The notes below the pieces were generated by a model. The model was given only the letters and a program-made list of their open reading frames with translations, ran no database searches and was not told where the DNA came from. Position numbers and translations under genes: made by a program. Shown here one piece after another: positions 2,789 to 36,349 of a stretch of 64,000 bases of DNA; the first letter of the stretch is position 1, and every line of letters begins with the position of its first letter. Source of the DNA: Planctomycetota bacterium (GTDB lineage: Bacteria; Planctomycetota; UBA8108; UBA1146); contig JADHSM010000001.1 in assembly GCA_016776905.1 (NCBI GenBank), forward strand, positions 45,743-109,742, read 5' to 3'.

Positions 2789-3297
2789 GATGAGGAGGCC
2801 CCCTCGGTGTCTATGGACTCTCCCGAGGTTGGAATCATTTTTTGAATGCGGCTCGTCATCGATCCATCGAGGACACCCTTTTCAGCATCGTCCGTCAGCG
2901 CATGGACCAATAGTTGATCCTCCGTCACGTCGATGGTCACGGTACCTGGGGTCAACGTAATGGAGTTGGCGAGGAGAGTTTGGGCGAGGGGGTGTCGGAT
3001 GGAGTGGGGGACCTTGACCAACCTGGGTTGGATCGAGGACCGGAGACTCCATGAATGCCGGGTCACATCGAGACTGGCGAGTACGATTTGGTAAATCAGC
3101 CAGGGAAGATAGAAAAGGAATCGTGGAATCGATTCGACAGGCTGGTAAACCTCACCGATCAGTCCGAGACGATGGCAACAGAACACTGCGAGAGCTGAAG
3201 AGATCACTCCAGAGCCGACGAGGAATGTGGATTCGAATTGGCCCGAAAGGAGCAACCAGAAGCCGATCAGTGATAGAAGCAATAGTAACGAACGCAA
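2785..3297 (-). CDS. mrpE: Mrp/Mnh antiporter subunit E
   Basis: 170 aa. It has N-terminal TM helices followed by a soluble tail, and its stop overlaps the mrpF start (ATGA). Confidence 0.65.
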   Translation of the reverse strand: MRSLLLLLSLIGFWLLLSGQFESTFLVGSGVISSALAVFCCHRLGLIGEVYQPVESIPRFLFYLPWLIYQIVLASLDVTRHSWSLRSSIQPRLVKVPHSIRHPLAQTLLANSITLTPGTVTIDVTEDQLLVHALTDDAEKGVLDGSMTSRIQKMIPTSGESIDTEGASSS

Positions 3298-3507
3298 GTT
3301 CGGCTGCCTTGTCCATGTCAGTGTGTGAATGTGGTTTTCCGAGATCTGGAAGTGATCACCCTCAGGCCGTCAGCTCCCCAGATACTTCGACTCGAAAGAA
3401 GATGGCATGGTAATTTGCGATTGTCTACCTCTGACCCCAACAGGATTCACTCCCATAGATCAGTCTTGCCGGGTAGTCTTTTGTTTCGAGTCTCGAAAAG
3501 AGAACCG

Positions 3508-9706: not shown

Positions 9707-10408
9707 TTAGGCCCCTTCCCGCGTTTGATCTGACACGAGTGTTCCTTTGTCCAATTTGAGGAGTCGTCGTGCGCTGGCAGCAGCTGCCGGGTCGTGGGTC
9801 ACCATCAGAATGGTTTTTCCCATTTCGGAATTCAGGCGATCGAGTATTTGAAGAATCTCGTCAGCACTACTGCGATCAAGGTCCCCAGTGGGTTCGTCCG
9901 CGATGATGACGTCCGGATCAGTGGCGATGGCGCGAGCGATGGCGACTCTTTGCTCCTGTCCCCCCGAAAGTTGGGAAGGGCGATGGCTGGCTCGATCGGA
10001 TAAGCCGACGATTTCCAATGCGAAGTCTGCCTGTATCTTTCGCTCTGACTTAGAGAGGGGAGTGAGCTGAAGAGGTAGCATCACATTTTCATGAGCGGTG
10101 AGCACTGGCAGGAGATTGAAAGATTGAAAAACGAATCCGACATGGCGAGCTCGCCATGCAGGAAGTTGGCTTTTCGGCATATTGGCGACTTCTGTATCCG
10201 CCACTGAAACCTTGCCTGAATCGGGGACGTCGAGACCTCCGACAAGATTGAGAATGGTGGTTTTCCCCGATCCGCTGGGCCCCATGAGTGCGACGTAGTC
10301 GCCTTCGGGAACTTTAAGATCGAGGGCATCTAGGACGACCAGTTCTTCTCCGCCGCGGGAGTACTTCTTGGTCACACCGTCCAATTGAATGTATGTCTTT
10401 TCGCTCAT
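9707..10408 (-). CDS. ABC transporter ATP-binding protein (MacB/LolD-like)
   Basis: Walker [10 protein letters not shown], signature [14 protein letters not shown], Walker [12 protein letters not shown]. Confidence 0.9.
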
Positions 10409-12846: not shown

Positions 12847-14142
12847 TTAACGTGTCAGGCAGGAGGTTCGAAGAATCAATCCCTGACGTTGGCGTGGAAT
12901 TCCGGGAGAATCGGGATTTTTTTTCTGTTGTAGAGCGAGAGCACTGCCCCGAAGTAACAGACCATGACCATGTTGTTCACGAACGCGATCAACCTGAGGT
13001 AATAATTTTTGCCAGTTTGACTGTTGTCGTTTTTGGAAGTGGGATTCTTCGACTCCGATCGCTGCTGGTGGTCCGTCTTCTAAGACCGTAGATGTGTCAT
13101 CGAAAAGAGTTCCTTGCTCTGCGGAGGAGACGGGTTGGATCTTATCGAGGATCAGACCAATGAACCGAATGGCGGTTCTTCTTTTTTGTAGCGTTCGCCT
13201 CAATCGAAGAACAATCCTGATCAGATCAGGGTCGAGTTGGCTGGGGAATTTCAAAGATTCTCGTCGTCGATCGCGAATATGGTCACTGTAGGCGATTTGT
13301 ACCGAGACTCCGCCTGCCATTAATCCACGCTTTCGAAGATCAGAAGCGGCTCTCTCGGTGAGATATTCCAGCATGGCATCCAGAGTTCGTGGGCAAGAAA
13401 CATCCTCATCAAATGAAGTTCCTCGCTGAAGAGTTCGGGGGATTTCTTTGCCACCGATACTGCGATGATCTTCTCCTCGGCAGCGTTGATAAAGTGTTTC
13501 TCCATTCCTTCCGAGAAGGCCTTTCAAAGCTGGGGCTGAAAGTTGTCTCAATTGGGATATGGTCTCGATGCCTAGGCGACCGAGCTTTTCAGTGGTACGA
13601 GGACCGACTCCCGGAAGATCTCCGACCGTCATCGATAGAAGCAGATCTTCTTCATTCTCGGGACGGATGAGTCCTATACCGTTCGGCTTGTGGTCTCGAC
13701 CGATGAGTCTTGCGAACATACGATTTCTTCCCAATCCAACGGTGACGGTCAGCCCTGTGGATTCAGTGACTTCCCGACAGAGGCGTTCTGCTTCGTGGAC
13801 AGGGTTCGGAAATATTCGTCGGGTTCCCGAGAGGTCGCAGTAGGCTTCATCGAGATGTTCTTCGACACGGGGAGATAGCGTTTCACAGATGTCAAAAAGG
13901 CGCCGTGCATAGGCTCGATAGATGGTTTCGCGTCCACGAACGATGATGAGATTTGGGCAACGACGTAGCGCTTTCCCGAGCGGCATTCCTGCACGAAGTC
14001 CGTGTTCCCGAGCTTCATAGGAGCACGAGGCGATGACGCCGCTACCCACGGCAACGGGTTTACCGCTCAGTCGGGGATTTCGAATCTGTTCGACGGAAGC
14101 AAAAAAGGCGTCGATGTCGACGTGTAAGATGAGGGAATCCAT
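12847..14142 (-). CDS. dinB: Y-family DNA polymerase IV (DinB) with a C-terminal extension
   Basis: MDSLILHVDIDAFFASVEQ, LDEAYCDL and SMTVGDLPGVGPRTTEKLGRLGIETI are present. A clamp-binding-like QGTLF is followed by about 90 low-complexity residues. Confidence 0.85.
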   Translation of the reverse strand: MDSLILHVDIDAFFASVEQIRNPRLSGKPVAVGSGVIASCSYEAREHGLRAGMPLGKALRRCPNLIIVRGRETIYRAYARRLFDICETLSPRVEEHLDEAYCDLSGTRRIFPNPVHEAERLCREVTESTGLTVTVGLGRNRMFARLIGRDHKPNGIGLIRPENEEDLLLSMTVGDLPGVGPRTTEKLGRLGIETISQLRQLSAPALKGLLGRNGETLYQRCRGEDHRSIGGKEIPRTLQRGTSFDEDVSCPRTLDAMLEYLTERAASDLRKRGLMAGGVSVQIAYSDHIRDRRRESLKFPSQLDPDLIRIVLRLRRTLQKRRTAIRFIGLILDKIQPVSSAEQGTLFDDTSTVLEDGPPAAIGVEESHFQKRQQSNWQKLLPQVDRVREQHGHGLLLRGSALALQQKKNPDSPGIPRQRQGLILRTSCLTR

Positions 14143-14170
14143 GGCACTCCTTGTCGGTGGGAAGAGCGAG

Positions 14171-14194
14171 CATAGCGAACATCTGTTCGCTATG
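14171..14194. promoter_or_regulatory. Putative LexA operator (Cheo-type CGAAC-N4-GTTCG) upstream of dinB
   Basis: Perfect 24-bp palindrome catagcGAACatctGTTCgctatg, ending 29 bp upstream of the dinB ATG at 14142. Confidence 0.65.
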
Positions 14195-14309
14195 CACCAT
14201 CCTTGTTGTGGTCACTTGTTCTGGAAGGTCCATCCCCTCAATATGCCCTATAACTGCGATATTCAGCTATTTGAAGACCGGTTTTGCGAATAGCCGGGGA
14301 AGAGGGAGA

Positions 14310-27102: not shown

Positions 27103-27157
27103 GAACGAAATTTTTGAACGGTGATTTGAACGGTGATTTGAACGGTAATTTGAACGG
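27103..27157. repeat. 12-bp tandem repeat (gaacggtgattt), about 4.5 copies, in the 5' region of the HEAT/vWA gene
   Basis: Read directly. A second 12-bp x2 duplication (ctcttctttgct) lies in-frame at 27285-27310. Confidence 0.85.
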
Positions 27158-27164
27158 AATTGGG

Positions 27165-28928
27165 ATGTCCCACATGACAGAACTCCTGCAAGTTCAGCCG
27201 AGCTTGATTTCAGCGTCGAGAAATGGGCATCTTTTTCTTCAGAGTGGCGACGGCTCGGAGATCAAAATTGCTCGAGTGACCTTCGCTCTCTTCTTTGCTC
27301 TCTTCTTTGCTTTTGCGCTGACATCTTTGAATACCTTAGAGGCCCAAAAGCCTGATTTTCCCAAGGAAGTGATCGACAGTGAGCGCTCTGTCCGCCGGCA
27401 AAGCGATGCGGCGACAGCGGCTCGTAAAGAAGTTCAATCCGCAGTGCAAAATAAAAAGTATCTCCCTGTTTTTCCGTTGTTAGGAGATGCTTCAGGGAGG
27501 GTACGGGATGCGGTTTTCAAACTCTTGGTCGATCTTTCTTCTGAAGAGATGCTCTCTTTACTCGAGTCTTGGAATCGCAGTCCTTTACAAAAAGGAGATC
27601 CCGGAAAGAAAGATCGTATCGAAATCCAGCTGGCCGAAATTCTACATCGGCATCCGGTCACAGGATCGCATCCCTTCCTCCTGGGAATCGTGTCTTCTCG
27701 TAAATCGAGTGATACCGCCCGGGAGTTAGCGGTCTCTGCATTGGGGAATTTTGACTCTCAAACTTTGCCCAAGAAAACAATTCAAGTGATAGAGAAAATG
27801 GCTCAGAGGGATAAATCTTGGTGGGTCCGTGGTGAAGCGATTCGTGTCCTCGCGAAATTGACGGGAGACGCATCCTTGAAAGTGATCGACAAAGCCTGGC
27901 AAGAGAAGAAGTCACTCTCTTTAAGGCTTGCCAGTCTCCAAGCTCTGGCCGAAGTGGATCCTGCTGCAGCCGTTGAGCGCAGTATGGAAATGGTCAGGGA
28001 GGGGGTCAAAGATCGTCAGGGATATTGGGGAGCACGCCTTCGAAGAGGCGCTTTTCAAGTCTTGTCACAACAAGGGAGTCTACTCGCGAGAAGTGAAAGA
28101 GCGCCCTTTATCGAAGAGTTGATATCTCTGGCAGGAGAACTCGATCAGCGCTTTCAGGAGAGTTGTATGCTGACTCTCGAAGGTTTGACAGGAATATCCG
28201 ATCTCGGAAAGAGTGTCGTGGCTTGGGATTCTTGGTGGCGCAGTCGAGGACCCGATTGGATTGCGGGGGAAGGCGAAAAAGAGTCGCCTGAATCTGAAAG
28301 AGGAGATGGGGCCGGGGATTCAGAAGAACAAGGACAGACAAGGGTCGTCGAATATCATGGGATACCCATCGATTCTCGTCATATTGTTTTTGTCTCGGAT
28401 GTCTCGGGTGGAATGTCGAGAACTTTGGATGGATCTTTTGATGGAGACGGTCTTCGTCGTATCGAGGTGGCGAAATCTGAACTGCTCAAGGTTTTGGGAT
28501 CTTTACCAGGAAATGCTCTGATACAGGTCGTCTTTTTTGCCAGCCAGAGGATCCCCGTACTCTCAGCACCTCAATTGTTGTCACGTTGCATCCAGTCCGT
28601 CAGCCAGAAAATAAAAGATCAGGGAGTTCCCCAGGGGCCCGGTGCCGCAAGAGGGAACCTGTATTCACCCTTGCGTTTCGCTTTGTTCGAACCCGGCATC
28701 GATACCATCATATTGCTCACTGAAGGCGCAGCGACGGAGGGATTTATTCATGACGGCGATCGTATCCGTTGGCATGTCCGGCGTTGGAATCGATGGGGAC
28801 AGGTCAAAATCCATGTGCTGTCTTTGGGTTCTCTTTCGGGTAAAAACAGGCAGTTCTTAGAAGGCTTGGCCACCGATAACGGAGGCGAATTTCACGATAT
28901 CGATGATCGCTTTAAGGCTGGGAAGTAG
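27165..28928 (+). CDS. HEAT-repeat protein with a C-terminal von Willebrand factor A (vWA) domain, signal-anchored
   Basis: HEAT-like repeats in the middle, and a C-terminal vWA with a MIDAS-like FVSDVSGGMS. ATG at 27165; the ORF-track TTG start reads through the repeat as MNGDLNGDL. Confidence 0.55.
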   Translation: MSHMTELLQVQPSLISASRNGHLFLQSGDGSEIKIARVTFALFFALFFAFALTSLNTLEAQKPDFPKEVIDSERSVRRQSDAATAARKEVQSAVQNKKYLPVFPLLGDASGRVRDAVFKLLVDLSSEEMLSLLESWNRSPLQKGDPGKKDRIEIQLAEILHRHPVTGSHPFLLGIVSSRKSSDTARELAVSALGNFDSQTLPKKTIQVIEKMAQRDKSWWVRGEAIRVLAKLTGDASLKVIDKAWQEKKSLSLRLASLQALAEVDPAAAVERSMEMVREGVKDRQGYWGARLRRGAFQVLSQQGSLLARSERAPFIEELISLAGELDQRFQESCMLTLEGLTGISDLGKSVVAWDSWWRSRGPDWIAGEGEKESPESERGDGAGDSEEQGQTRVVEYHGIPIDSRHIVFVSDVSGGMSRTLDGSFDGDGLRRIEVAKSELLKVLGSLPGNALIQVVFFASQRIPVLSAPQLLSRCIQSVSQKIKDQGVPQGPGAARGNLYSPLRFALFEPGIDTIILLTEGAATEGFIHDGDRIRWHVRRWNRWGQVKIHVLSLGSLSGKNRQFLEGLATDNGGEFHDIDDRFKAGK

Positions 28929-28969: not shown

Positions 28970-29233
28970 CTATTGAAGAAAGAGTCGTTCAATGCGCCAG
29001 CCGGCTTGGGCTTCTTGATAGGCGAGTTCGAGGATGTCTCCAGTATCAACCTCAACCGTAAATCCGTGCAGGGGCGGTTGAAGAGATCTGTCGATCCAGT
29101 GGGAATGGTTTTTTTCCACCTTCAGGAGACGGCGATTCCATAAAATCGATAATATTTCGATACGGTTTGAATGAAATCGAACGATGACCTCTTCCAGAGG
29201 TTCGTCGATAATCTCCTCATGAACTTCGCTCAT
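28970..29233 (-). CDS. Small acidic hypothetical protein translationally coupled to lexA
   Basis: 87 aa. Its ATG overlaps the lexA stop (ATGA). The local GC is lower than its neighbours and I recognise no domain. Confidence 0.3.
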   Translation of the reverse strand: MSEVHEEIIDEPLEEVIVRFHSNRIEILSILWNRRLLKVEKNHSHWIDRSLQPPLHGFTVEVDTGDILELAYQEAQAGWRIERLFLQ

Positions 29234-29958
29234 CTGTTTTGATCAAATCGACGGACGAGTCCGACGAGTTTGCCGAAAACTTTGATGGATCCCATTTCAG
29301 AATTCAGTTCGAGGGGGGGGAAATCCGGATGAGCCGCTTCGAGAATGATGCGGGTTTCTTGACTGGCGTCGGTTTTTTTTCGCCAGCGCTTGAGAGTGCC
29401 TTCTCCTTCGATGGTGATGGCTGCAATCTCTCCATTCTCGACGGTCGGCTGGTTTCGAATGATGGCGAGGTCGCCATTGTGTATTCCCGCATCTTGCATG
29501 CTGTGCCCCTCAACAGTGAGTGCGACGACATGATCTTTTTGACCAAAAGCAGAAGGCGGCATATCGATCCACTCTTCTGGTTGTTGACCTGATTCCAGAC
29601 AACTTTCGATGGGGCGTCCGGCAGCGATTCTGCCGACGACGGGAATCGAGTCGGGACGTGGAGAATCTGCCTGATCTTCGATAACGGGAGACCAACTTCG
29701 GGAACCTCCTCCTGAGACTCGCGTGATCAGTCCCGCTTCTTCCAGCTTTTTGAGATGTCGATGAACAGAGGCCGGTGAAGAGAGACCCAGTTGTGTCGCT
29801 AACTCCCTGACGGTTGCCGGTCTATGACTGGAACCACGAATGAGATCGAGCATTCGTTGACGGGTGTTGTTTCCTCGCGGTGAGTCGAGGTCCGAGGTCT
29901 TGGAATCAGGAACCGCGGATTTGGATTTGAGTGACGACTTTTTTCGTGTGTTGGACAT
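29230..29958 (-). CDS. lexA: LexA repressor (S24 peptidase) with an extended basic N-terminus
   Basis: wHTH region VRELATQLGLSSPASVHRHLKKLEEAGLI, cleavage-site region VVGRIAAGRPI, and catalytic Ser in GHSM and Lys in LKRW. Confidence 0.85.
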   Translation of the reverse strand: MSNTRKKSSLKSKSAVPDSKTSDLDSPRGNNTRQRMLDLIRGSSHRPATVRELATQLGLSSPASVHRHLKKLEEAGLITRVSGGGSRSWSPVIEDQADSPRPDSIPVVGRIAAGRPIESCLESGQQPEEWIDMPPSAFGQKDHVVALTVEGHSMQDAGIHNGDLAIIRNQPTVENGEIAAITIEGEGTLKRWRKKTDASQETRIILEAAHPDFPPLELNSEMGSIKVFGKLVGLVRRFDQNR

Positions 29959-29980: not shown

Positions 29981-30006
29981 GAAAGCCCCTTTTCTAGGGG
30001 GCTTTC
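29981..30006. other. GC-rich hairpin in the lexA leader, between the operator and the start codon
   Basis: gaaagcccc-ttttcta-ggggctttc. Confidence 0.6.
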
Positions 30007-30014
30007 ACACAATG

Positions 30015-30030
30015 GCGAACGAATGTTCGC
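30015..30030. promoter_or_regulatory. Putative LexA operator (Cheo-type) upstream of lexA
   Basis: gCGAACgaatGTTCGc, 58 bp upstream of the lexA ATG. It has the same GCGAAC-N4-GTTCGC core as the dinB site. Confidence 0.6.
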
Positions 30031-30056
30031 ATGTCAAGTCGGGGACTTCGAAGACC

Positions 30057-30678: not shown

Positions 30679-31347
30679 ATGGCTATTTCGAAAATTTTAA
30701 TTCTGGGCAATGGCCCTGAACTGAGGCGTGTGCTCTCTGTTCTTGAAGCCGATCCCGAAAAAGAGTGCGTGGGTTGTGTTTCTTGGAAGGTTTCAGATCC
30801 TTCTAATGAGGCCATAGACCCTAGTCTAGGAATGCACTTCTGGAGGGGGACCGCCGAGACTCTCCAAGAATTGATCGCCGCCCAATCAGCAAAAATCGCA
30901 ATTGCGATCTCTTCCGCTCAAGAACGCTGGAAAGCTCTCAGCCTTCTCAATTCGCTGTCCATAGTTCCAGAGATACTGATCTCCGAAGGTGCAAGTGTCG
31001 ACGACAGTGCCATCATCGGGGCGGGTAGCGTTATCCACCAAGGAGTTATCTTGGAAGAGGGAGTCAGTGTGGGTCACGGGTGTCTCTTATTGCCAGGAAG
31101 TCGTATGGGTGTCGGTTCTCGATGTGGGGACGCCTGTATCATGGAGTCCGGCAGTCAGGTCGAAGATATGGGGCGATTAGGGGACGAGGTTCACCTGGGG
31201 ACTCGTACTGTCGTCTTATCTGAGCGAATTGTCGGCCCAGGATCATTGATTCTTCCCGGATCGATAGTGACTTCAGACGTGGAATCGGGTGTCATTGTGA
31301 GCGGTACCCCGGCGTCTGTGATTGAAAGCTCAACTTCTTCTGAATAG
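30679..31347 (+). CDS. Hexapeptide-repeat sugar N/O-acetyltransferase (NeuD/PglD-like)
   Basis: N-terminal Rossmann-like domain plus a left-handed beta-helix with hexapeptide repeats (IIGAGSVIHQGVILEEGVSVGHGCLL). Confidence 0.6.
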   Translation: MAISKILILGNGPELRRVLSVLEADPEKECVGCVSWKVSDPSNEAIDPSLGMHFWRGTAETLQELIAAQSAKIAIAISSAQERWKALSLLNSLSIVPEILISEGASVDDSAIIGAGSVIHQGVILEEGVSVGHGCLLLPGSRMGVGSRCGDACIMESGSQVEDMGRLGDEVHLGTRTVVLSERIVGPGSLILPGSIVTSDVESGVIVSGTPASVIESSTSSE

Positions 31348-31439
31348 AACACCTGTTCTGCAGATTGAAAGTGAAGAGCAGAAAAGCCAAAGCTGGGGGG
31401 GATATATCCCCATTCGATTTTCCGGGAAGAGAGAGCAAA

Positions 31440-32864
31440 ATGTCTGAGAGTACACCGCATTCTAGCGATGAAGATAGTTCAGGCGAAACGAGCTCAGGAC
31501 TCATCCTGAATACGACAAAAGATCAGGGATATAAACCTCCACGACTCTTTAACGAAATCCTTCCTACTGGAGGAGTGATACGCCGGCGCTGGGAAGATTT
31601 CAGAGTGGAAGAGATTCCTCTCTACACTCCATGCGGTTCTGGAGAGCATCTCTACATAACAATAGAGAAGCGAAACAGAACTACACTTCAAGCTCGAAAT
31701 CATCTCGCGAGGGTATTTGAAGTCTCACCGGACGATGTCGGGTTCGCAGGTTTCAAAGATAAACGTGCCATCACTACACAGACTTTTTCTCTCCCTGTTC
31801 TTTCTGATACAAAAGTTAAAGATGTCGAAGAGCATTGGATAGAAGTCAAGGAAGTCCAGAGACACAAAAATAAGATTCGTACGGGGCATCTTGAGGGAAA
31901 TCGATTTGAAATCCTGATCAGGGAAACTCGTGAAGATTGCCTTGAAGATGTCACTAAGATTCTTTCAAAGATTGCTCTGCATGGGCTTCCCAATTTTTAT
32001 GGACCTCAGCGATTTGGCATCCATGGAGATGGCGCAAAAGTAGGTTCTGCTTTGCTCCGGAGAAAAATTGACAAGGCCCTCGATTTGCTATTGGCCCCAA
32101 GTGAAGGCATCGTTGAGGAATACCGGGACGCTTACGCCGCTGGTGATATTCAACAAGCTCTGCAGCTTTTGCCCCCGGGAAGAAACACAGAGTTGGCGAT
32201 GCTGAAATCGCTGCGTTCTCACCCTGATAATATGCGTGCCGCTGCAAGACGGATTCCTAGACCGCTTCGGAAAATGTACTACTCAGCTTATCAGTCAGAA
32301 CTTTTCAACTGGGTTCTTATCGAACGAATGGATCGATCTCCTGATGCATATCATTCGCCATGGGCGGGTGATATTTGCCAGTTAGAGGGAAGAAGATCAA
32401 GGTTTCATGTTGATCTGGATCCCGTGGCCCATCAGATAGAGGTGGAACGCGCAGCAGCGGGGGAGGTGTCTCCCACAGGACCGATATTTGGTCGAAAGAT
32501 GAAACCACCACTCGGGCTCGCAGGTGATGTTGAAATGGCGATTTTGGAAGCAGAAGGATTAAGAGCGGAGTCGTGGCTCTCTCATGTGAGAGGTCTTGAT
32601 CTGGATGGGTCGAGAAGGCCGCTGAGAGTTTCTGTTGGCGATCCTGAAGCCAGTTGGCACAAAGGTGAAGAGGGAGAGGAAGGGTTGATGATCAAGTTCT
32701 CGCTGCCAGCGGGCTCATTTGCCACCACGCTCCTTGATCAGATCATGGGCCCGGAAGTCTCCCGAGTCGAAGTCGACTCGGGAGACTCCCGTGAGTTGGA
32801 GTCGCAAGACTCCCGTGAGTTGGAGTCGCAAGACTCCTGTGAGTTGGAGTCGCAAGACTCCTGA
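31440..32864 (+). CDS. truD: tRNA pseudouridine(13) synthase TruD with a repetitive C-terminal tail
   Basis: AGFKDKRAITTQ holds the catalytic Asp motif. ATG at 31440 follows GGGAAGAGAG. The C-terminus carries (DSRELESQ)x3. Confidence 0.75.
   Translation: MSESTPHSSDEDSSGETSSGLILNTTKDQGYKPPRLFNEILPTGGVIRRRWEDFRVEEIPLYTPCGSGEHLYITIEKRNRTTLQARNHLARVFEVSPDDVGFAGFKDKRAITTQTFSLPVLSDTKVKDVEEHWIEVKEVQRHKNKIRTGHLEGNRFEILIRETREDCLEDVTKILSKIALHGLPNFYGPQRFGIHGDGAKVGSALLRRKIDKALDLLLAPSEGIVEEYRDAYAAGDIQQALQLLPPGRNTELAMLKSLRSHPDNMRAAARRIPRPLRKMYYSAYQSELFNWVLIERMDRSPDAYHSPWAGDICQLEGRRSRFHVDLDPVAHQIEVERAAAGEVSPTGPIFGRKMKPPLGLAGDVEMAILEAEGLRAESWLSHVRGLDLDGSRRPLRVSVGDPEASWHKGEEGEEGLMIKFSLPAGSFATTLLDQIMGPEVSRVEVDSGDSRELESQDSRELESQDSCELESQDS
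32761..32864. repeat. 22-bp perfect palindrome, then a 24-bp x3.4 in-frame tandem repeat at the truD 3' end
   Basis: cccgagtcgaagtcgactcggg, followed by (gactcccgtgagttggagtcgcaa)x3 up to the stop codon. Confidence 0.85.
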
Positions 32865-32867
32865 AAC

Positions 32868-35078
32868 TCATCGGGCGACTGGAATCTGTCCCTGTGCGAT
32901 TTCTAGAATCTTGAAGGATTGAGTTCCAGTGGGAAGTTCTACTTCAAATTCTTCTCCAGCACGTTTTTGAAGAAGAGCTTTTCCAAGTGGAGAAAGATAT
33001 GAGATTACTCCGTCATCGGGGCCACCATCCCAGGGGCCAAGAATGGAGTATGTGACCTCTGAATCAGTTCCGACGTTAAAGATCTTCACACAACTGCCGA
33101 GACTGACCTGGTCCGTCGTCGCCTTGGTTGGATCAATGATCTGAGCGCGATCGAGTTCTGATTGGAGTTCGAGGACTTTTCTATTCAGGTTCTCACGCTC
33201 TTCGATCGCAGAAGTGAATTCAGCATTTTCACTGAGGTCTCCCAGCGCTGCTGCATCTCCAATCGCTTTGAAAATCGCAGGCAGTTTTTCGTTTCGGATC
33301 TCTGTAAGTTCTTTTTGAACCTTGTCCATACCATAGGTGGTGGAGTAAATGGTGTCTCTGCTTGAGACTTCCACTTTCACTACTTTTTGGCCAGAAAGAA
33401 CCTTGGGGAACTTTCTGAGAATGACGGCTTTCAGCTTTTCAATATTGGCAACACTGATAGTTCGCAAGCTAATAATCAAATCATAGAGTGCTCGTGCATC
33501 ATTGGATTTAGAACTGTCGAGAGTTTTGTTGAGTAAGTTGAATGGCTTTGCAGTGAGGTGCTGACGAAAACGTTTCACCGTTCTTTGCAGACCAGGATCA
33601 TCCGTAGTTGTATTCAAAGTGAGAGCGAGTCTGTCGAGTAGTGATAGGCACTGTCTGACAAGATCAGAAGTGGAAATCCCTTCCAGCATTGGGAAGTCTG
33701 CGGTATTTCCTGCAGCAGCTCGTCTCGCGAGGAACAGGAACAAGAGGGGCGATTTGCTCGGCTGTTGAAGTGAATCCATGCAGTTATCATGCATTTGATT
33801 CATAGTGCCTTCTGCTTTGAATTTTGTGATCAAAAGTTCGCGGAGAACGTCGTCTGATTCAAGGAACAATTCCGAATCGTTATTCGTGAATTCTTCAGGG
33901 TTGAGTCGTATGAGAATTTCCAACGTCTCATTAATCTCATCTTCTCGAGTAATATTGTTGAGAAGATTGGAGAGACGTTTTTCCTTCATGGCGAGTGCGC
34001 CGATAGCCATTTCTTCTTGGCCATTGGAAGCATGCTCCCTGAGAAGGAGGAGTGCTGAGACTCTTTCCGAACGAGGTAGATCTCCTCTGTCGACATCTCT
34101 TCGGAGACGGGTGAACCCTTCTTCCAATACCGAGATTTGATCAGGACCGACCTCCACTAGGGATTCCCTGATCGATTGAAGTAACTCGGAAGGAGAGAGC
34201 CCCTTAAACTTGCGTGTGAGGCTGGTATTCAAGGCTTCAGGTGTATCTAGCAGATACAGCTCATTATTCTTGCCGCCGGTTTGACCGATGAGCGGCTCCT
34301 TTTTGAGAGCATTTCTGGTCTTCGTCCACCATTTACTCCACGAGCTGGTCGGAATCGCTGTTCCTGCAATCAGGTCTTTCACCCGTGGCAATGGTAAAGG
34401 TTTTGAGGAGGTTCGGAGGGCGAGCTTGATCAGTTCGACCGGTTCTTTTTCCGCCAACTCTTTCAGGTCTTCAGGCCTTCTCCATGAGACGACAAGAAAG
34501 TGATCATGATCGAGTGGAGTACAGATCTGGGGGAGGGCTTCCAATTTCATGGAGTGCCCTTCTTTTTTCTGAAAATCGACGATGGCGGTTTCAGTCTTAG
34601 TGTCGAGAGATTTGACTTCTCCCACTCCCCATCCGGATCGGTGTTTGACGAAGGAGCCGGGTTGGTAGTGAACCATTCTTTTAAAGAGTGGAATCACATC
34701 CCCGGGTCGAGTTCCTTCCATGAGGCCTGAGTTTTTAACGCAGGTATCAAACCCATCAATGTGTCCGAAGTTATCTTTGTATGAATCGAGTAGCAGGTTC
34801 CGCATCGGTTCGCTTCTCGGGAGAGTGCATGCCAGAGCCTCGATGAATTCGAGTTTCTTTTCTGGAACCAAAGTGTCAGCGTTCCCTGACTGATAGATGA
34901 GTTCCAGCATTTGTCCGGCACGTTCTTCGCAACCATTTGCAATAGCAGAGCGGGCGGCGGTCAAATAATCAGGAAACTTGACATTGCCACTTTCGATGGC
35001 ATCCAACCAGGCTTCTTCATAATCGTCCCAGGACTGATCTTTCATGGCGCGTTCAGCACGATCCAGAAATTGCGACAT
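32868..35078 (-). CDS. Large GreA/GreB-domain protein (C-terminal Gre factor fold; N-terminal possible CarD/TRCF-like RNAP-interacting module)
   Basis: The C-terminus has ALGDLSENAEFTSAIEERENLNRKVLELQSELDRAQII plus an FKBP-like Gre C-domain. SFVKHRSGWGVGEV resembles a CarD-type RNAP-interacting domain. ATG at 35078 follows AGGATGG; the ORF-track start at 35162 overlaps hutI. Confidence 0.55.
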   Translation of the reverse strand: MSQFLDRAERAMKDQSWDDYEEAWLDAIESGNVKFPDYLTAARSAIANGCEERAGQMLELIYQSGNADTLVPEKKLEFIEALACTLPRSEPMRNLLLDSYKDNFGHIDGFDTCVKNSGLMEGTRPGDVIPLFKRMVHYQPGSFVKHRSGWGVGEVKSLDTKTETAIVDFQKKEGHSMKLEALPQICTPLDHDHFLVVSWRRPEDLKELAEKEPVELIKLALRTSSKPLPLPRVKDLIAGTAIPTSSWSKWWTKTRNALKKEPLIGQTGGKNNELYLLDTPEALNTSLTRKFKGLSPSELLQSIRESLVEVGPDQISVLEEGFTRLRRDVDRGDLPRSERVSALLLLREHASNGQEEMAIGALAMKEKRLSNLLNNITREDEINETLEILIRLNPEEFTNNDSELFLESDDVLRELLITKFKAEGTMNQMHDNCMDSLQQPSKSPLLFLFLARRAAAGNTADFPMLEGISTSDLVRQCLSLLDRLALTLNTTTDDPGLQRTVKRFRQHLTAKPFNLLNKTLDSSKSNDARALYDLIISLRTISVANIEKLKAVILRKFPKVLSGQKVVKVEVSSRDTIYSTTYGMDKVQKELTEIRNEKLPAIFKAIGDAAALGDLSENAEFTSAIEERENLNRKVLELQSELDRAQIIDPTKATTDQVSLGSCVKIFNVGTDSEVTYSILGPWDGGPDDGVISYLSPLGKALLQKRAGEEFEVELPTGTQSFKILEIAQGQIPVAR

Positions 35079-35116
35079 CTTTTTCCATCCTATTGGCACA
35101 CGGGGTGCCTCTTCGA

Positions 35117-36349
35117 TCAACTGTGGACTGGAGGCCCGGAAATCCGGTTTCCACCTGCCCATACTGTACGAGACAAATCGTTAGTGAATTCGTAAATCAA
35201 AAAATCTTCGTCAGGAGCATCCCAAAGAATGAGGTCCGCTCTTTTCTCAACGTCTATGGATCCGCAGATCTCACTTCGTCCCAATGCTTTCGCGCCCCCC
35301 AAAGTGGCCGCTTCAAGTGCCTCTAAAGGGGTCATGTTCATACGCTGGACGGCAAGTCCCATGATGAAGAGCATGCTCTCGATGGTGCATGACCCCGGGT
35401 TTCTATCCGTGGCCAAGGCCACATCGAGGCCAGCATCGATCATTTTGCGAGCTGGAGCATATGTCGGCTTCGACAAGAAAAAGGTGGTTCCGGGGAGCAG
35501 AGTCGCCACGACTCCTGCTTCTTTGAGAGCTGCGATACCTTCTGGTGGTGTCATCATCAGGTGATCCGCACTGATAGCGCCGACCTGAGCGGCAACGAGA
35601 GAACCTCCAGAAGCGGCCATTTCGTCCGCGTGGATCTTTGGTTTCAATCCATGGGCGATACCGGCTTCGAGAACCGCTTGGCTCTCTTCGGGGTTAAAGA
35701 CGCCCCGTTCACAAAAGACATCACAAAACTCTGCAAGCCCCTCGCTGGCAACAGCGGGAATCATTTCTTCGCAGACCATTTGAATATATCGGGATCGATC
35801 TTCACGCCACTCATCGGGAGTTTCGTGAGCGCCCATGAAAGTGGGGACGATTTCAGCAGGACAATCCTTAGCAAGGATCGCTATGGCCCGAAGCATTTTT
35901 AGTTCTGTTTCGAGATCCAGACCATATCCACTCTTGATTTCGATGGTTGTCGATCCGGAGGCCATCATCCTTTGGATTCGAGGAAGAGCATCTGAAACGA
36001 GAGTATCGAGATCCGTATCCCGAGTCATTCGTACCGAGGCTCTGATTCCGCCACCTGCGGCTGCTATTTGTTCGTAGTCCGCGCCCGCACAGCGTTGGAC
36101 AAATTCCCCAGCACGCTGGCCACCAAAGATCACATGAGTATGAGAATCCACAAATCCGGGAGTGATGAGTTTGCCTGTGGCATCGATCTCTTCCCGAGGA
36201 TGGAAAAGACCGGCGATTTCACTCGCCGGTCCGATAGCCTTGATTTTCCCTGAATCGATCGCAATCGAGAACCCCTCGTATACTCCTTTGTTTCCGGAGA
36301 CCACCCTTTTGGCGTTTGAGAGGAGGAGATCAATAGGCTTCAAAGTCAT
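35117..36349 (-). CDS. hutI: Imidazolonepropionase
   Basis: [13 protein letters not shown], with the amidohydrolase metal ligands. Its stop overlaps the hutU start. Confidence 0.85.

What the first reader, a model, noticed from the sequence alone, without database searches (positions are those of the whole stretch)
14171..14194. Cheo-type (GAAC-N4-GTTC) SOS operators in front of both dinB and lexA
Two near-identical palindromes are present. One is catagCGAACatctGTTCGctatg, a perfect 24-bp palindrome 29 bp upstream of the dinB ATG. The other is gCGAACgaatGTTCGc at 30015-30030, 58 bp upstream of lexA. Both fit the LexA box described for B. subtilis and other Gram-positives (CGAACN4GTTCG). I found no third copy in the window. 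This defines the LexA motif for this organism, which appears to be a Planctomycetota-like genome, and gives a direct read-out of its SOS regulon.
Basis: partly seen in the sequence, partly recalled or inferred. Interest (0 to 1): 0.6.

Follow-up and report, generated by a model that had tools for sequence, protein, structure and literature searches.

The report
Gram-positive-type LexA boxes in a planctomycete
Two conserved 14-bp inverted repeats sit inside the promoters of the lexA repressor operon and of an error-prone DNA polymerase gene in an uncultured marine planctomycete, so they are almost certainly the DNA-damage (SOS) operators of this lineage; the control system is a well-known kind found in a phylum where it had not been described.

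Summary
Both sites exist as reported: CGAACATCTGTTCG at 14176-14189 and CGAACGAATGTTCG at 30016-30029. Exact core matches number 3, against 0.10 expected by chance. It is not conserved, overlaps the mnhE start codon and scores at noise level, so it is probably fortuitous.

In relatives with 47-71% protein identity, the box lies upstream of lexA in 8 loci (exact in 6, one core mismatch in 2) and upstream of the polymerase gene in 4 (all exact). It always fills the spacer between a -35 (TTGACA-like) and a -10 (TAnnnT or CATnnT) hexamer. A matrix built only from the non-window sites scores the two window sites at 25.2 and 24.5 bits (shuffle maximum 16.5).

LexA is intact, and its recognition helix (SSPASVHRHL) resembles actinobacterial and Firmicute helices. 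Other planctomycete LexAs differ and lack the box.

"dinB" is below every NCBIfam Pol IV cut-off. In other lineages it sits in a lexA-small ORF-polY operon. Here that cassette is split: lexA plus an 87-aa DUF6504-like gene at one locus, polY about 15 kb away, each with its own box.

Verdict: a real LexA operator, a new member of a known kind. Binding and the wider regulon are untested.

The parts
30016..30029 (.). LexA operator of the lexA operon. On the gene (minus) strand it reads CGAACATTCGTTCG. With its flanks it is GCGAAC-N4-GTTCGC (30015-30030).
   Evidence: Exact core match. The box is present at the same position in L001, L002, L003, L167, L168, L170, L172 and L174. It scores 25.2 bits with a matrix built from non-window sites, against a shuffle maximum of 16.5.
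30032..30037 (-). -35 hexamer TTGACA of the lexA promoter, 2 nt upstream of the operator.
   Evidence: Read directly from the sequence. TTGAC(A) is conserved at the same offset in relatives (alignment). The consensus promoter scanner did not call it, because the -10 hexamer is weak.
30009..30014 (-). -10-like hexamer CATTGT of the lexA promoter, 1 nt downstream of the operator.
   Evidence: CATTGT, CATTCT, CATCCT and TAACCT occur at the same offset in relatives, and A2 and T6 are always kept. Inferred, not mapped.
29230..29958 (-). lexA (242 aa). It has a winged-helix DNA-binding domain, the Ala113-Gly114 cleavage site and the Ser153/Lys190 dyad.
   Evidence: TIGR00498 130.6 bits against a 110.95 cut-off. 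Pfam LexA_DNA_bind and Peptidase_S24. The cleavage-site and catalytic residues are invariant in 30 homologues. Alignment to E. coli LexA structures.
28970..29233 (-). 87-aa all-beta protein (DUF6504-like, candidate standalone ImuB-C). It overlaps the lexA stop codon by 4 nt, so it is presumably co-transcribed with lexA.
   Evidence: Conserved immediately downstream of lexA in all close relatives. Hits to Pfam DUF6504 lie around the gathering score. NCBI names the homologue P0258 a 'DUF6504 family protein'. It lies between lexA and polY in L089, L107, L115, L140 and L146. The AlphaFold model has pLDDT 89.6 and seven strands.
14176..14189 (.). LexA operator of the Y-family polymerase gene. On the gene (minus) strand it reads CGAACAGATGTTCG.
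   Evidence: Exact core match. It is an invariant block GCGAACA-N-ATGTTCGC in an otherwise diverged intergenic alignment. The box is exact upstream of the orthologue in L161, L162, L165 and L173. It scores 24.5 bits.
14192..14197 (-). -35-like hexamer GTGCAT of the polymerase promoter, 2 nt upstream of the operator. It is weak here; relatives have TTGCGA or GTGCGA.
   Evidence: Alignment of sites with their flanks. Inferred.
14169..14174 (-). -10-like hexamer TATGCT of the polymerase promoter, 1 nt downstream of the operator.
   Evidence: TATGCT, TAAGAT, AATGAT, TATCCT and TAACGT occur at the same offset in relatives. Inferred.
12847..14142 (-). The active-site motifs DIDAFFASVE and LDEAY are present. 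It has a QGTLF clamp-binding-like motif and a conserved C-terminal extension that ends in RTSCLTR.
   Evidence: Pfam IMS, IMS_C and IMS_HHH_1. All NCBIfam Pol IV models score below their cut-offs. The C-terminal extension is conserved in homologues down to about 42% identity and aligns weakly to RecA residues 9-29. Relatives sit in lexA-small ORF-polY operons.

Best explanation
The two inverted repeats are operators for the LexA repressor encoded at 29230-29958. The consensus in this clade is CGAACA-N2-TGTTCG, the same motif as in Firmicutes and Actinobacteria.

Each operator occupies the spacer between a -35 hexamer and a -10 hexamer of a sigma-70-type promoter. A bound LexA dimer would therefore exclude RNA polymerase. 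After DNA damage, RecA bound to single-stranded DNA would trigger LexA self-cleavage at Ala113-Gly114 by the Ser153/Lys190 dyad. Both promoters would then fire.

One promoter drives lexA plus an 87-aa DUF6504-like gene, which is a candidate standalone ImuB-C. The other drives a Y-family translesion polymerase. Together these are the parts of the lexA-imuB-C-polY damage-inducible cassette known from Geobacter. Here the cassette is split into two loci about 15 kb apart and kept co-regulated by a box at each.

Shown: the presence of the motif, its enrichment, its conservation, its position in the promoter, the intact LexA, and the linkage of the three genes in other lineages. Inferred: LexA binding, repression, damage induction, and the role of the small protein.
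For: Enrichment in the window: 3 exact core matches against 0.10 expected.

Enrichment in relatives: in 236.5 kb of loci (12 from close relatives plus L175, another assembly of the window's own organism) there are 11 exact matches. Ten lie directly upstream of lexA or polY.

Conservation upstream of lexA: exact in L001 and L003, one mismatch in L002; exact in L167, L168 and L170; one mismatch in L172 and exact in L174.

Conservation upstream of polY: exact in L161, L162 and L165 and in L173.

The box is the only invariant block of that length in the polY upstream alignment.

The architecture is constant: [-35]-N2-box-N1-[-10].

A matrix trained without the window sites scores them at 25.2 and 24.5 bits, against a shuffle mean maximum of 11.7 and a maximum of 16.5.

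LexA scores above the TIGR00498 cut-off. Its cleavage site and Ser/Lys dyad are invariant.

The alpha-3 helix SSPASVHRHL is close to SSPSTVHSHL of Acidimicrobiia and Actinomycetes and to the Firmicute-type SSSTVHGHL. Many of those loci carry the same box upstream of their own lexA, which serves as a positive control.

The Verrucomicrobia-type motif TGTTC-N4-GAACA is absent from the window.

Cassette linkage: lexA-small ORF-polY are contiguous in L089, L107, L115, L140 and L146, and small ORF-polY in L081-L083 and L087. [quoted passage not shown]
Against: There is no binding or expression data. The organism is known only from metagenome assemblies.

The -10 hexamers are weak, and the consensus promoter scanner found no promoter at either site.

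Only two target promoters could be examined. No recA, uvrA or other classical SOS promoter from this clade was reachable, so it is unknown whether this LexA controls a broad SOS regulon.

The identity of the 87-aa protein with ImuB-C rests on gene neighbourhood and near-threshold DUF6504 hits. It was not compared directly with ImuB.

The RecA-N-terminal-like motif of the polymerase tail is only weakly supported (hhalign probability 33%). Pfam DUF4113 was not detected.
Confidence: 0.85

Rival explanations
1. The boxes are real LexA operators, but this LexA is a dedicated regulator of the mutagenesis cassette (lexA-DUF6504 plus polY). It is not the master regulator of a broad SOS regulon. recA and the excision-repair genes are then outside its control, as reported for the cassette-linked LexA proteins of Geobacter sulfurreducens.
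For: In other lineages lexA is part of the three-gene cassette. [quoted passage not shown] In about 300 kb examined (window plus relatives), the well-supported sites are only at lexA and polY. Other planctomycete LexAs have different recognition helices, so more than one LexA type exists in the phylum.
Against: The 300 kb covers one syntenic region and contains no other classical SOS gene, so the absence of further sites says little. In Firmicutes and Actinobacteria the same motif controls large regulons.
Confidence: 0.3
2. The third exact core match (3289-3302) is also a functional LexA site. It would place the mnh/mrp cation antiporter operon or the divergent EamA transporter under SOS control.
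For: It is an exact CGAAC-N4-GTTCG in a divergent 5' region. A TACTAT hexamer follows it on the mnhE strand (read).
Against: It is absent from the syntenic EamA/mnhE intergenic region of L161, L162 and L165. Its right half is the coding sequence TTG-CGT-TCG (Met-Arg-Ser) of mnhE. Its spacer (TTGC) and flanks do not fit the clade motif: it scores 9.4 bits, below the shuffle mean maximum of 11.7. One chance match is not unlikely.
Confidence: 0.08
3. The palindromes are not LexA sites. They would be binding sites of another regulator, or structural hairpins or repeat elements that happen to resemble the Cheo box.
For: No binding data exist. The motif is short.
Against: The bases themselves are conserved, not merely the ability to pair. 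The repeats sit between the -35 and -10 hexamers. One of the two is in front of lexA itself, which is the hallmark of LexA autoregulation. The box co-occurs with a Firmicute/actinobacterial-type LexA helix and is absent where the helix differs. A stem of 5-6 bp with a 4-nt loop is too weak to act as a terminator.
Confidence: 0.04

Closest known systems
Cheo box, the LexA operator of Firmicutes and Actinobacteria (CGAAC-N4-GTTCG; B. subtilis optimum CGAACATATGTTCG from my own knowledge; GAAC-N4-GTTC as cited in PMC4951493)
   Same: The half-sites, the 4-bp spacing and the preference for A and T at the inner spacer positions are identical. The box lies upstream of lexA itself and of a translesion polymerase. 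The LexA alpha-3 helix is similar.
   Different: The host is a Planctomycetota lineage. PMC4951493 (2016) states that the SOS response had not been documented in the PVC super-phylum. I found no later description of a planctomycete LexA motif in the searchable library. Binding is not demonstrated here.
Verrucomicrobia LexA-binding motif TGTTC-N4-GAACA (PMC4951493)
   Same: Same super-phylum (PVC), the same 5-4-5 dyad geometry, and lexA autoregulation.
   Different: It is the mirror image of the motif found here. No exact TGTTC-N4-GAACA occurs in the window, and 1-mismatch hits are at chance level. No tandem sites were seen at the lexA promoter.
Geobacter sulfurreducens lexA-imuB-C-polY operon, GeoPolY-like group (PMC6511836, citing Jara et al. 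2003)
   Same: It combines an active Y-family polymerase that has a C-terminal extension, a small all-beta protein, and lexA. The same three genes are contiguous in L089, L107, L115, L140 and L146.
   Different: In the window and its close relatives the cassette is split. lexA and the small ORF are about 15 kb from polY, each with its own box. The operator sequence differs between lineages: L107 has CTAAC-N4-GTTAG in the same promoter slot.
E. coli dinB (Pol IV) under the CTGT-N8-ACAG SOS box
   Same: A Y-family polymerase repressed by LexA.
   Different: The operator motif is different. The polymerase here is below all NCBIfam Pol IV cut-offs and carries an extra conserved C-terminal region.

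Membership tests
LexA repressor (TIGR00498) | Scores above the curated equivalog cut-off, with an N-terminal LexA DNA-binding domain and a C-terminal S24 peptidase domain | tested here: met
   TIGR00498 130.6 bits against 110.95. PF01726 35.4 against 23.7, and PF00717 74.2 against 23.3.
LexA repressor (TIGR00498) | Ala-Gly self-cleavage site and Ser/Lys catalytic dyad | tested here: met
   A113-G114, S153 and K190 are invariant in 30 homologues. They align with E. coli LexA.
LexA repressor (TIGR00498) | Autoregulation: its own operator lies in the lexA promoter | tested here: met
   The box lies between the -35 and -10 hexamers of lexA in the window and in 8 related loci.
LexA repressor (TIGR00498) | RecA-stimulated cleavage after DNA damage | not testable with these tools
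   Requires biochemistry.
Cheo-type LexA operator (CGAAC-N4-GTTCG) | A 14-bp dyad matching the consensus, occurring more often than chance | tested here: met
   3 exact matches against 0.10 expected. Ten of 11 exact matches in 236.5 kb of related loci lie at lexA or polY promoters.
Cheo-type LexA operator (CGAAC-N4-GTTCG) | Conserved in orthologous promoters while the flanks diverge | tested here: met
Cheo-type LexA operator (CGAAC-N4-GTTCG) | The cognate LexA has a recognition helix of the Firmicute/actinobacterial type | tested here: met
   SSPASVHRHL compared with SSPSTVHSHL and SSSTVHGHL. LexAs with other helices (L043, L047, L049) lack the box. This is similarity by inspection, not a binding-specificity assay.
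Cheo-type LexA operator (CGAAC-N4-GTTCG) | Bound by LexA in vitro or in vivo | not testable with these tools
   Needs EMSA, DAP-seq or ChIP.
DNA polymerase IV (DinB) equivalogs of NCBIfam | Scores above a Pol IV equivalog cut-off | tested here: not met
   The best hit is NF002882 at 257.2 bits against 389. The closest to its cut-off is NF002677 at 223.5 against 256. It is a Y-family polymerase (Pfam IMS) but not a curated Pol IV.
GeoPolY-like polymerase with standalone ImuB-C (PMC6511836) | Active Y-family catalytic core | tested here: met
   The motifs DIDAFFASVE and LDEAY are present. D9, D11 and E99 are nearly invariant, and D98 is invariant.
GeoPolY-like polymerase with standalone ImuB-C (PMC6511836) | Gene neighbourhood with lexA and a small all-beta protein | tested here: met
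   The three genes are contiguous in L089, L107, L115, L140 and L146, and split in the window clade.
GeoPolY-like polymerase with standalone ImuB-C (PMC6511836) | RecA-N-terminal-like (DUF4113-like) motif in the C-terminal extension | tested here: inconclusive
   hhalign aligns the tail to RecA residues 9-29 with probability 33%. Pfam DUF4113 was not detected, and there was no PDB sequence hit.
GeoPolY-like polymerase with standalone ImuB-C (PMC6511836) | The small protein is homologous to the C-terminal domain of ImuB | tested here: inconclusive
   Only DUF6504 hits around the gathering score (21-27 bits against 24.2). No ImuB sequence was available for a direct comparison. The all-beta model agrees with the beta character described for ImuB-C.

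The most novel reading that the evidence does not exclude
A marine Planctomycetota clade has kept the presumed ancestral Firmicute/actinobacterial LexA motif, while the sister phylum Verrucomicrobia uses its mirror image and other planctomycetes carry LexAs with different recognition helices. In this clade the LexA is the dedicated switch of a lexA-ImuB-C-PolY mutagenesis cassette that has been split into two loci. The two loci are held together only by a shared operator placed in the same phase in both promoters. If so, this is a natural example of operon fission with regulon preservation. It is also a missing data point for the tandem-site model of LexA motif evolution in the PVC group.
Probability: 0.3. 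Interest if true: 0.5.

Novelty: new member of a known kind. Interest (0 to 1): 0.35.

Why it matters
The finding gives a testable LexA motif for part of a phylum in which, according to the literature I could search, no SOS operator has been defined. With the matrix derived here, anyone holding the full genomes can read the regulon directly.

It also adds a data point on LexA motif evolution in the PVC super-phylum. This clade has the Gram-positive-type motif, Verrucomicrobia have the mirror image, and other planctomycete LexAs have different helices.

It links a widespread uncharacterised small protein family (DUF6504-like; 502 cluster representatives) to LexA control and to a specific Y-family polymerase.

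None of this changes how the SOS response is understood. It is a clean extension of a known system.

Tried and rejected
It returned mostly Actinobacteria and only three close relatives. It was still useful as a positive control.

2. The metagenome-contig scan with the polymerase alignment used very general peptide patterns and returned only distant relatives (29-55% identity). Few had the box. These loci later turned out to carry the contiguous lexA-small ORF-polY operon.

3. The third exact site was rejected as a conserved operator. The variant AGAACACCTGTTCT at 31346 is not conserved either.

4. The extended 24-bp palindrome is not conserved. Its outer arms coincide with the promoter hexamers.

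5. The strong hairpin in the lexA leader is not conserved in relatives.

6. Pfam DUF4113 was not found in the polymerase tail, and the tail profile gave no PDB sequence hit.

8. No ImuB gene was present in the held loci for a direct ImuB-C comparison.

9. One window-edge protein gave about 9 kb of extra genome with no further site. The other was not on record.

Full report
**Observation.** The two reported sequences are present. catagCGAACatctGTTCGctatg is at 14171-14194, with its core at 14176-14189. gCGAACgaatGTTCGc is at 30015-30030, with its core at 30016-30029. The pattern CGAAC-N4-GTTCG has 3 exact matches in the 64-kb window against 0.10 expected, and none of 100 dinucleotide-preserving shuffles reaches 3. 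With 1-2 mismatches the count is at chance level (36 found, 35 expected). The 24-mer is a 10+10 inverted repeat around a spacer that is not self-complementary.

**Genes.** The ORF 12847..14142 on the minus strand is a Y-family polymerase with the Pfam domains IMS, IMS_HHH_1 and IMS_C. It stays below every NCBIfam Pol IV cut-off. The ORF 29230..29958 on the minus strand is LexA. It scores 130.6 bits against TIGR00498, above the 110.95 cut-off. Its Ala-Gly cleavage site and Ser/Lys dyad are invariant in 30 homologues. queF lies upstream of lexA on the same strand. An 87-aa ORF (28970..29233) overlaps the lexA stop codon. Pfam annotation of twenty ORFs between 26 and 57 kb found no other classical SOS gene. 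The named closest homologues are Planctomycetota or Planctomycetia MAGs. One window protein is found exactly in NCBI assembly GCA_014382255.1.

**Conservation upstream of lexA.** I fetched related loci through the genome scan and by exact-protein look-ups. The box is found in eight loci:
- L001, L002 and L003
- L167, L168 and L170
- L172 and L174

It is exact in six of them and has one core mismatch in L002 and L172. These LexAs are 44-61% identical to the window protein.

**Conservation upstream of the polymerase gene.** The box is exact in L161, L162 and L165 and in L173, where the proteins are 58-71% identical. In the alignment of the polymerase upstream regions the box is the only invariant block of that length. 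Across 236.5 kb of loci (12 from close relatives plus L175, another assembly of the window's own organism) there are 11 exact matches, and 10 of them are at these two promoters.

**Promoter architecture.** Aligning all 14 sites in gene orientation shows one architecture: a -35 hexamer, 2 nt, CGAACA-N2-TGTTCG, 1 nt, then a -10-like hexamer.
- The -35 hexamer is TTGACA or TTGAC for lexA, and TTGCGA, GTGCGA or GTGCAT for the polymerase.
- The -10 hexamer is CATTGT, CATYCT or TAACCT for lexA, and TATGCT, TAAGAT, AATGAT, TATCCT or TAACGT for the polymerase.
- A at position 2 and T at position 6 of the -10 hexamer are always kept.

The operator therefore fills the promoter spacer, which is the classical arrangement for repression by occlusion. 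The simple consensus scanner did not call these promoters, because the -10 hexamers are weak. The promoter assignment is an inference from conservation.

**Matrix scan.** A matrix built only from the 12 non-window sites scores the window sites at 25.2 bits (lexA) and 24.5 bits (polymerase). In 20 shuffles the best score averaged 11.7 and never exceeded 16.5.

**The third site.** 3289-3302 lies between mnhE (minus strand) and an EamA transporter gene (plus strand). Synteny is conserved in L161, L162 and L165, but the site is not. Its right half is the mnhE coding sequence TTG-CGT-TCG, where relatives have GTG-CGT-ACT. It scores 9.4 bits, which is within noise. I regard it as fortuitous. The symmetric variant AGAACACCTGTTCT at 31346-31359, just upstream of truD, is also absent from relatives.

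**Why LexA.** One box lies in front of lexA itself. The recognition helix of this LexA (SSPASVHRHL) is close to the helices of Acidimicrobiia and Actinomycetes (SSPSTVHSHL) and of Firmicute-type proteins (SSSTVHGHL). Many of those loci, fetched in the same scan, carry CGAAC-N4-GTTCG upstream of their own lexA, which serves as a positive control. LexAs from other planctomycete MAGs (L043, L047, L049) have different helices and no such box. The Verrucomicrobia motif TGTTC-N4-GAACA is absent from the window.

**The cassette.** The 87-aa ORF follows lexA in every close relative.
- A profile of the family finds 502 cluster representatives. The best 150 are nearly all short standalone proteins, typically 80-90 aa and none longer than 135 aa.
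- Members score around the Pfam DUF6504 gathering score. NCBI names one of them a DUF6504 family protein.
- The AlphaFold model is confident (pLDDT 89.6) and consists of seven beta strands. It has no significant solved homologue.
- In the more distant polymerase loci from metagenomes the three genes are contiguous and co-oriented. lexA-small ORF-polY occurs in L089, L107, L115, L140 and L146. Small ORF-polY occurs in L081-L083 and L087.

[quoted passage not shown] That paper cites evidence that the Geobacter operon is damage-induced and transcribed as one unit.

The polymerase has a conserved C-terminal extension. hhalign places it on RecA residues 9-29, the region that paper calls RecA-NT, but only at 33% probability.

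In the window clade the cassette is split into two loci about 15 kb apart, and each has its own box in the same promoter phase. In L107 the same promoter slot holds CTAAC-N4-GTTAG. The half-site therefore varies between lineages while the architecture stays the same.

**Literature.** PMC4951493 (2016) states that the SOS response had not been documented in the PVC super-phylum, and defines TGTTC-N4-GAACA for Verrucomicrobia. PMC3108266 says only that planctomycete LexA does not recognise the E. coli motif. Further searches found no description of a planctomycete LexA motif. The library does not hold most subscription journals, so a prior description cannot be excluded.

**Limits.** There are no binding or expression data. 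No recA, uvrA or imuA promoter from this clade was reachable, so the extent of the regulon is unknown. A cassette-dedicated LexA remains a live alternative. The equation of the small protein with ImuB-C rests on neighbourhood and near-threshold family hits.

**Verdict.** It is a new member of a known kind: a Firmicute/actinobacterial-type LexA operator in a Planctomycetota clade. The added observation is that it co-regulates the two halves of a split lexA-DUF6504/PolY cassette. Interest is moderate.

Noticed in passing
window 3289-3302: A third exact CGAAC-N4-GTTCG (CGAACGCAAGTTCG) lies between mnhE and an EamA transporter gene and overlaps the mnhE TTG start codon. It is not conserved in syntenic relatives and scores only 9.4 bits with the matrix, so it is probably fortuitous.
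   Followed up: yes
window 31346-31359: The symmetric variant AGAACACCTGTTCT lies at the end of a hexapeptide-transferase gene, 6 nt upstream of the first possible start of truD. It is absent from the same position in L167, L168 and L170.
   Followed up: partly
window 29981-30006: A strong stem-loop (GAAAGCCCC / GGGGCTTTC) lies in the lexA leader between the -10 hexamer and the ATG. As RNA it folds at -22.9 kcal/mol with a z-score of -5.4, and there is no T-run. Most relatives lack it; only L172 has a comparable leader hairpin. Its function is unknown.
   Followed up: partly
L167 about 9900-9985; L168 and L169 upstream of lexA: The lexA leaders of relatives contain short tandem repeats between the operator and the start codon. 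L167 has five copies of a 17-nt unit (cactggcctgagagaca). L168 and L169 have copies of a 12-nt unit (gtgcttctcact). The leader is long and variable across the clade.
   Followed up: no
L107 2950-2963: In a more distant lexA-small ORF-polY operon, the palindrome CTAACGTTTGTTAG sits between a perfect TTGACA and TATATT. It occupies the same slot as the box studied here but has a different half-site. It is probably the LexA motif of another lineage.
   Followed up: partly
L043, L047, L049 (lexA loci of Phycisphaerales, Planctomycetaceae and Planctomycetia MAGs): These planctomycete LexAs have different recognition helices (VSKVTVFEHV, KSPNGVMCHL, KSLRGVTIHL). No GAAC-N4-GTTC lies upstream of lexA in L043 or L049; L047 holds only 62 nt upstream, so it cannot be judged. 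The phylum seems to hold several LexA specificity classes.
   Followed up: partly
window 32868-35162 (minus strand): A 764-aa protein has GreA/GreB domains only in its last 160 residues, after a long N-terminal extension. It is conserved in relatives as a protein of about 735 aa carrying an HTH_GRAD annotation.
   Followed up: no
window 27114-28928 and 31365-32864: Two proteins contain short peptide repeats. The HEAT-repeat protein starts with NGDLNGDLNGNLNG. The TruD homologue ends with three copies of S(R/C)ELESQDS.
   Followed up: no
window 1-40000 compared with L161-L174: Gene order around lexA and the polymerase gene is conserved over tens of kilobases in relatives whose proteins are only 50-70% identical. 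The conserved order is: mnh operon, EamA, glycosyltransferase, MacB-type ABC system, CN-hydrolase, polY, enoyl-CoA hydratase, DUF1302/DUF1329, MMPL, acyl-CoA dehydrogenase, HEAT protein, small ORF, lexA, queF, truD, greA-like, hut genes.
   Followed up: partly
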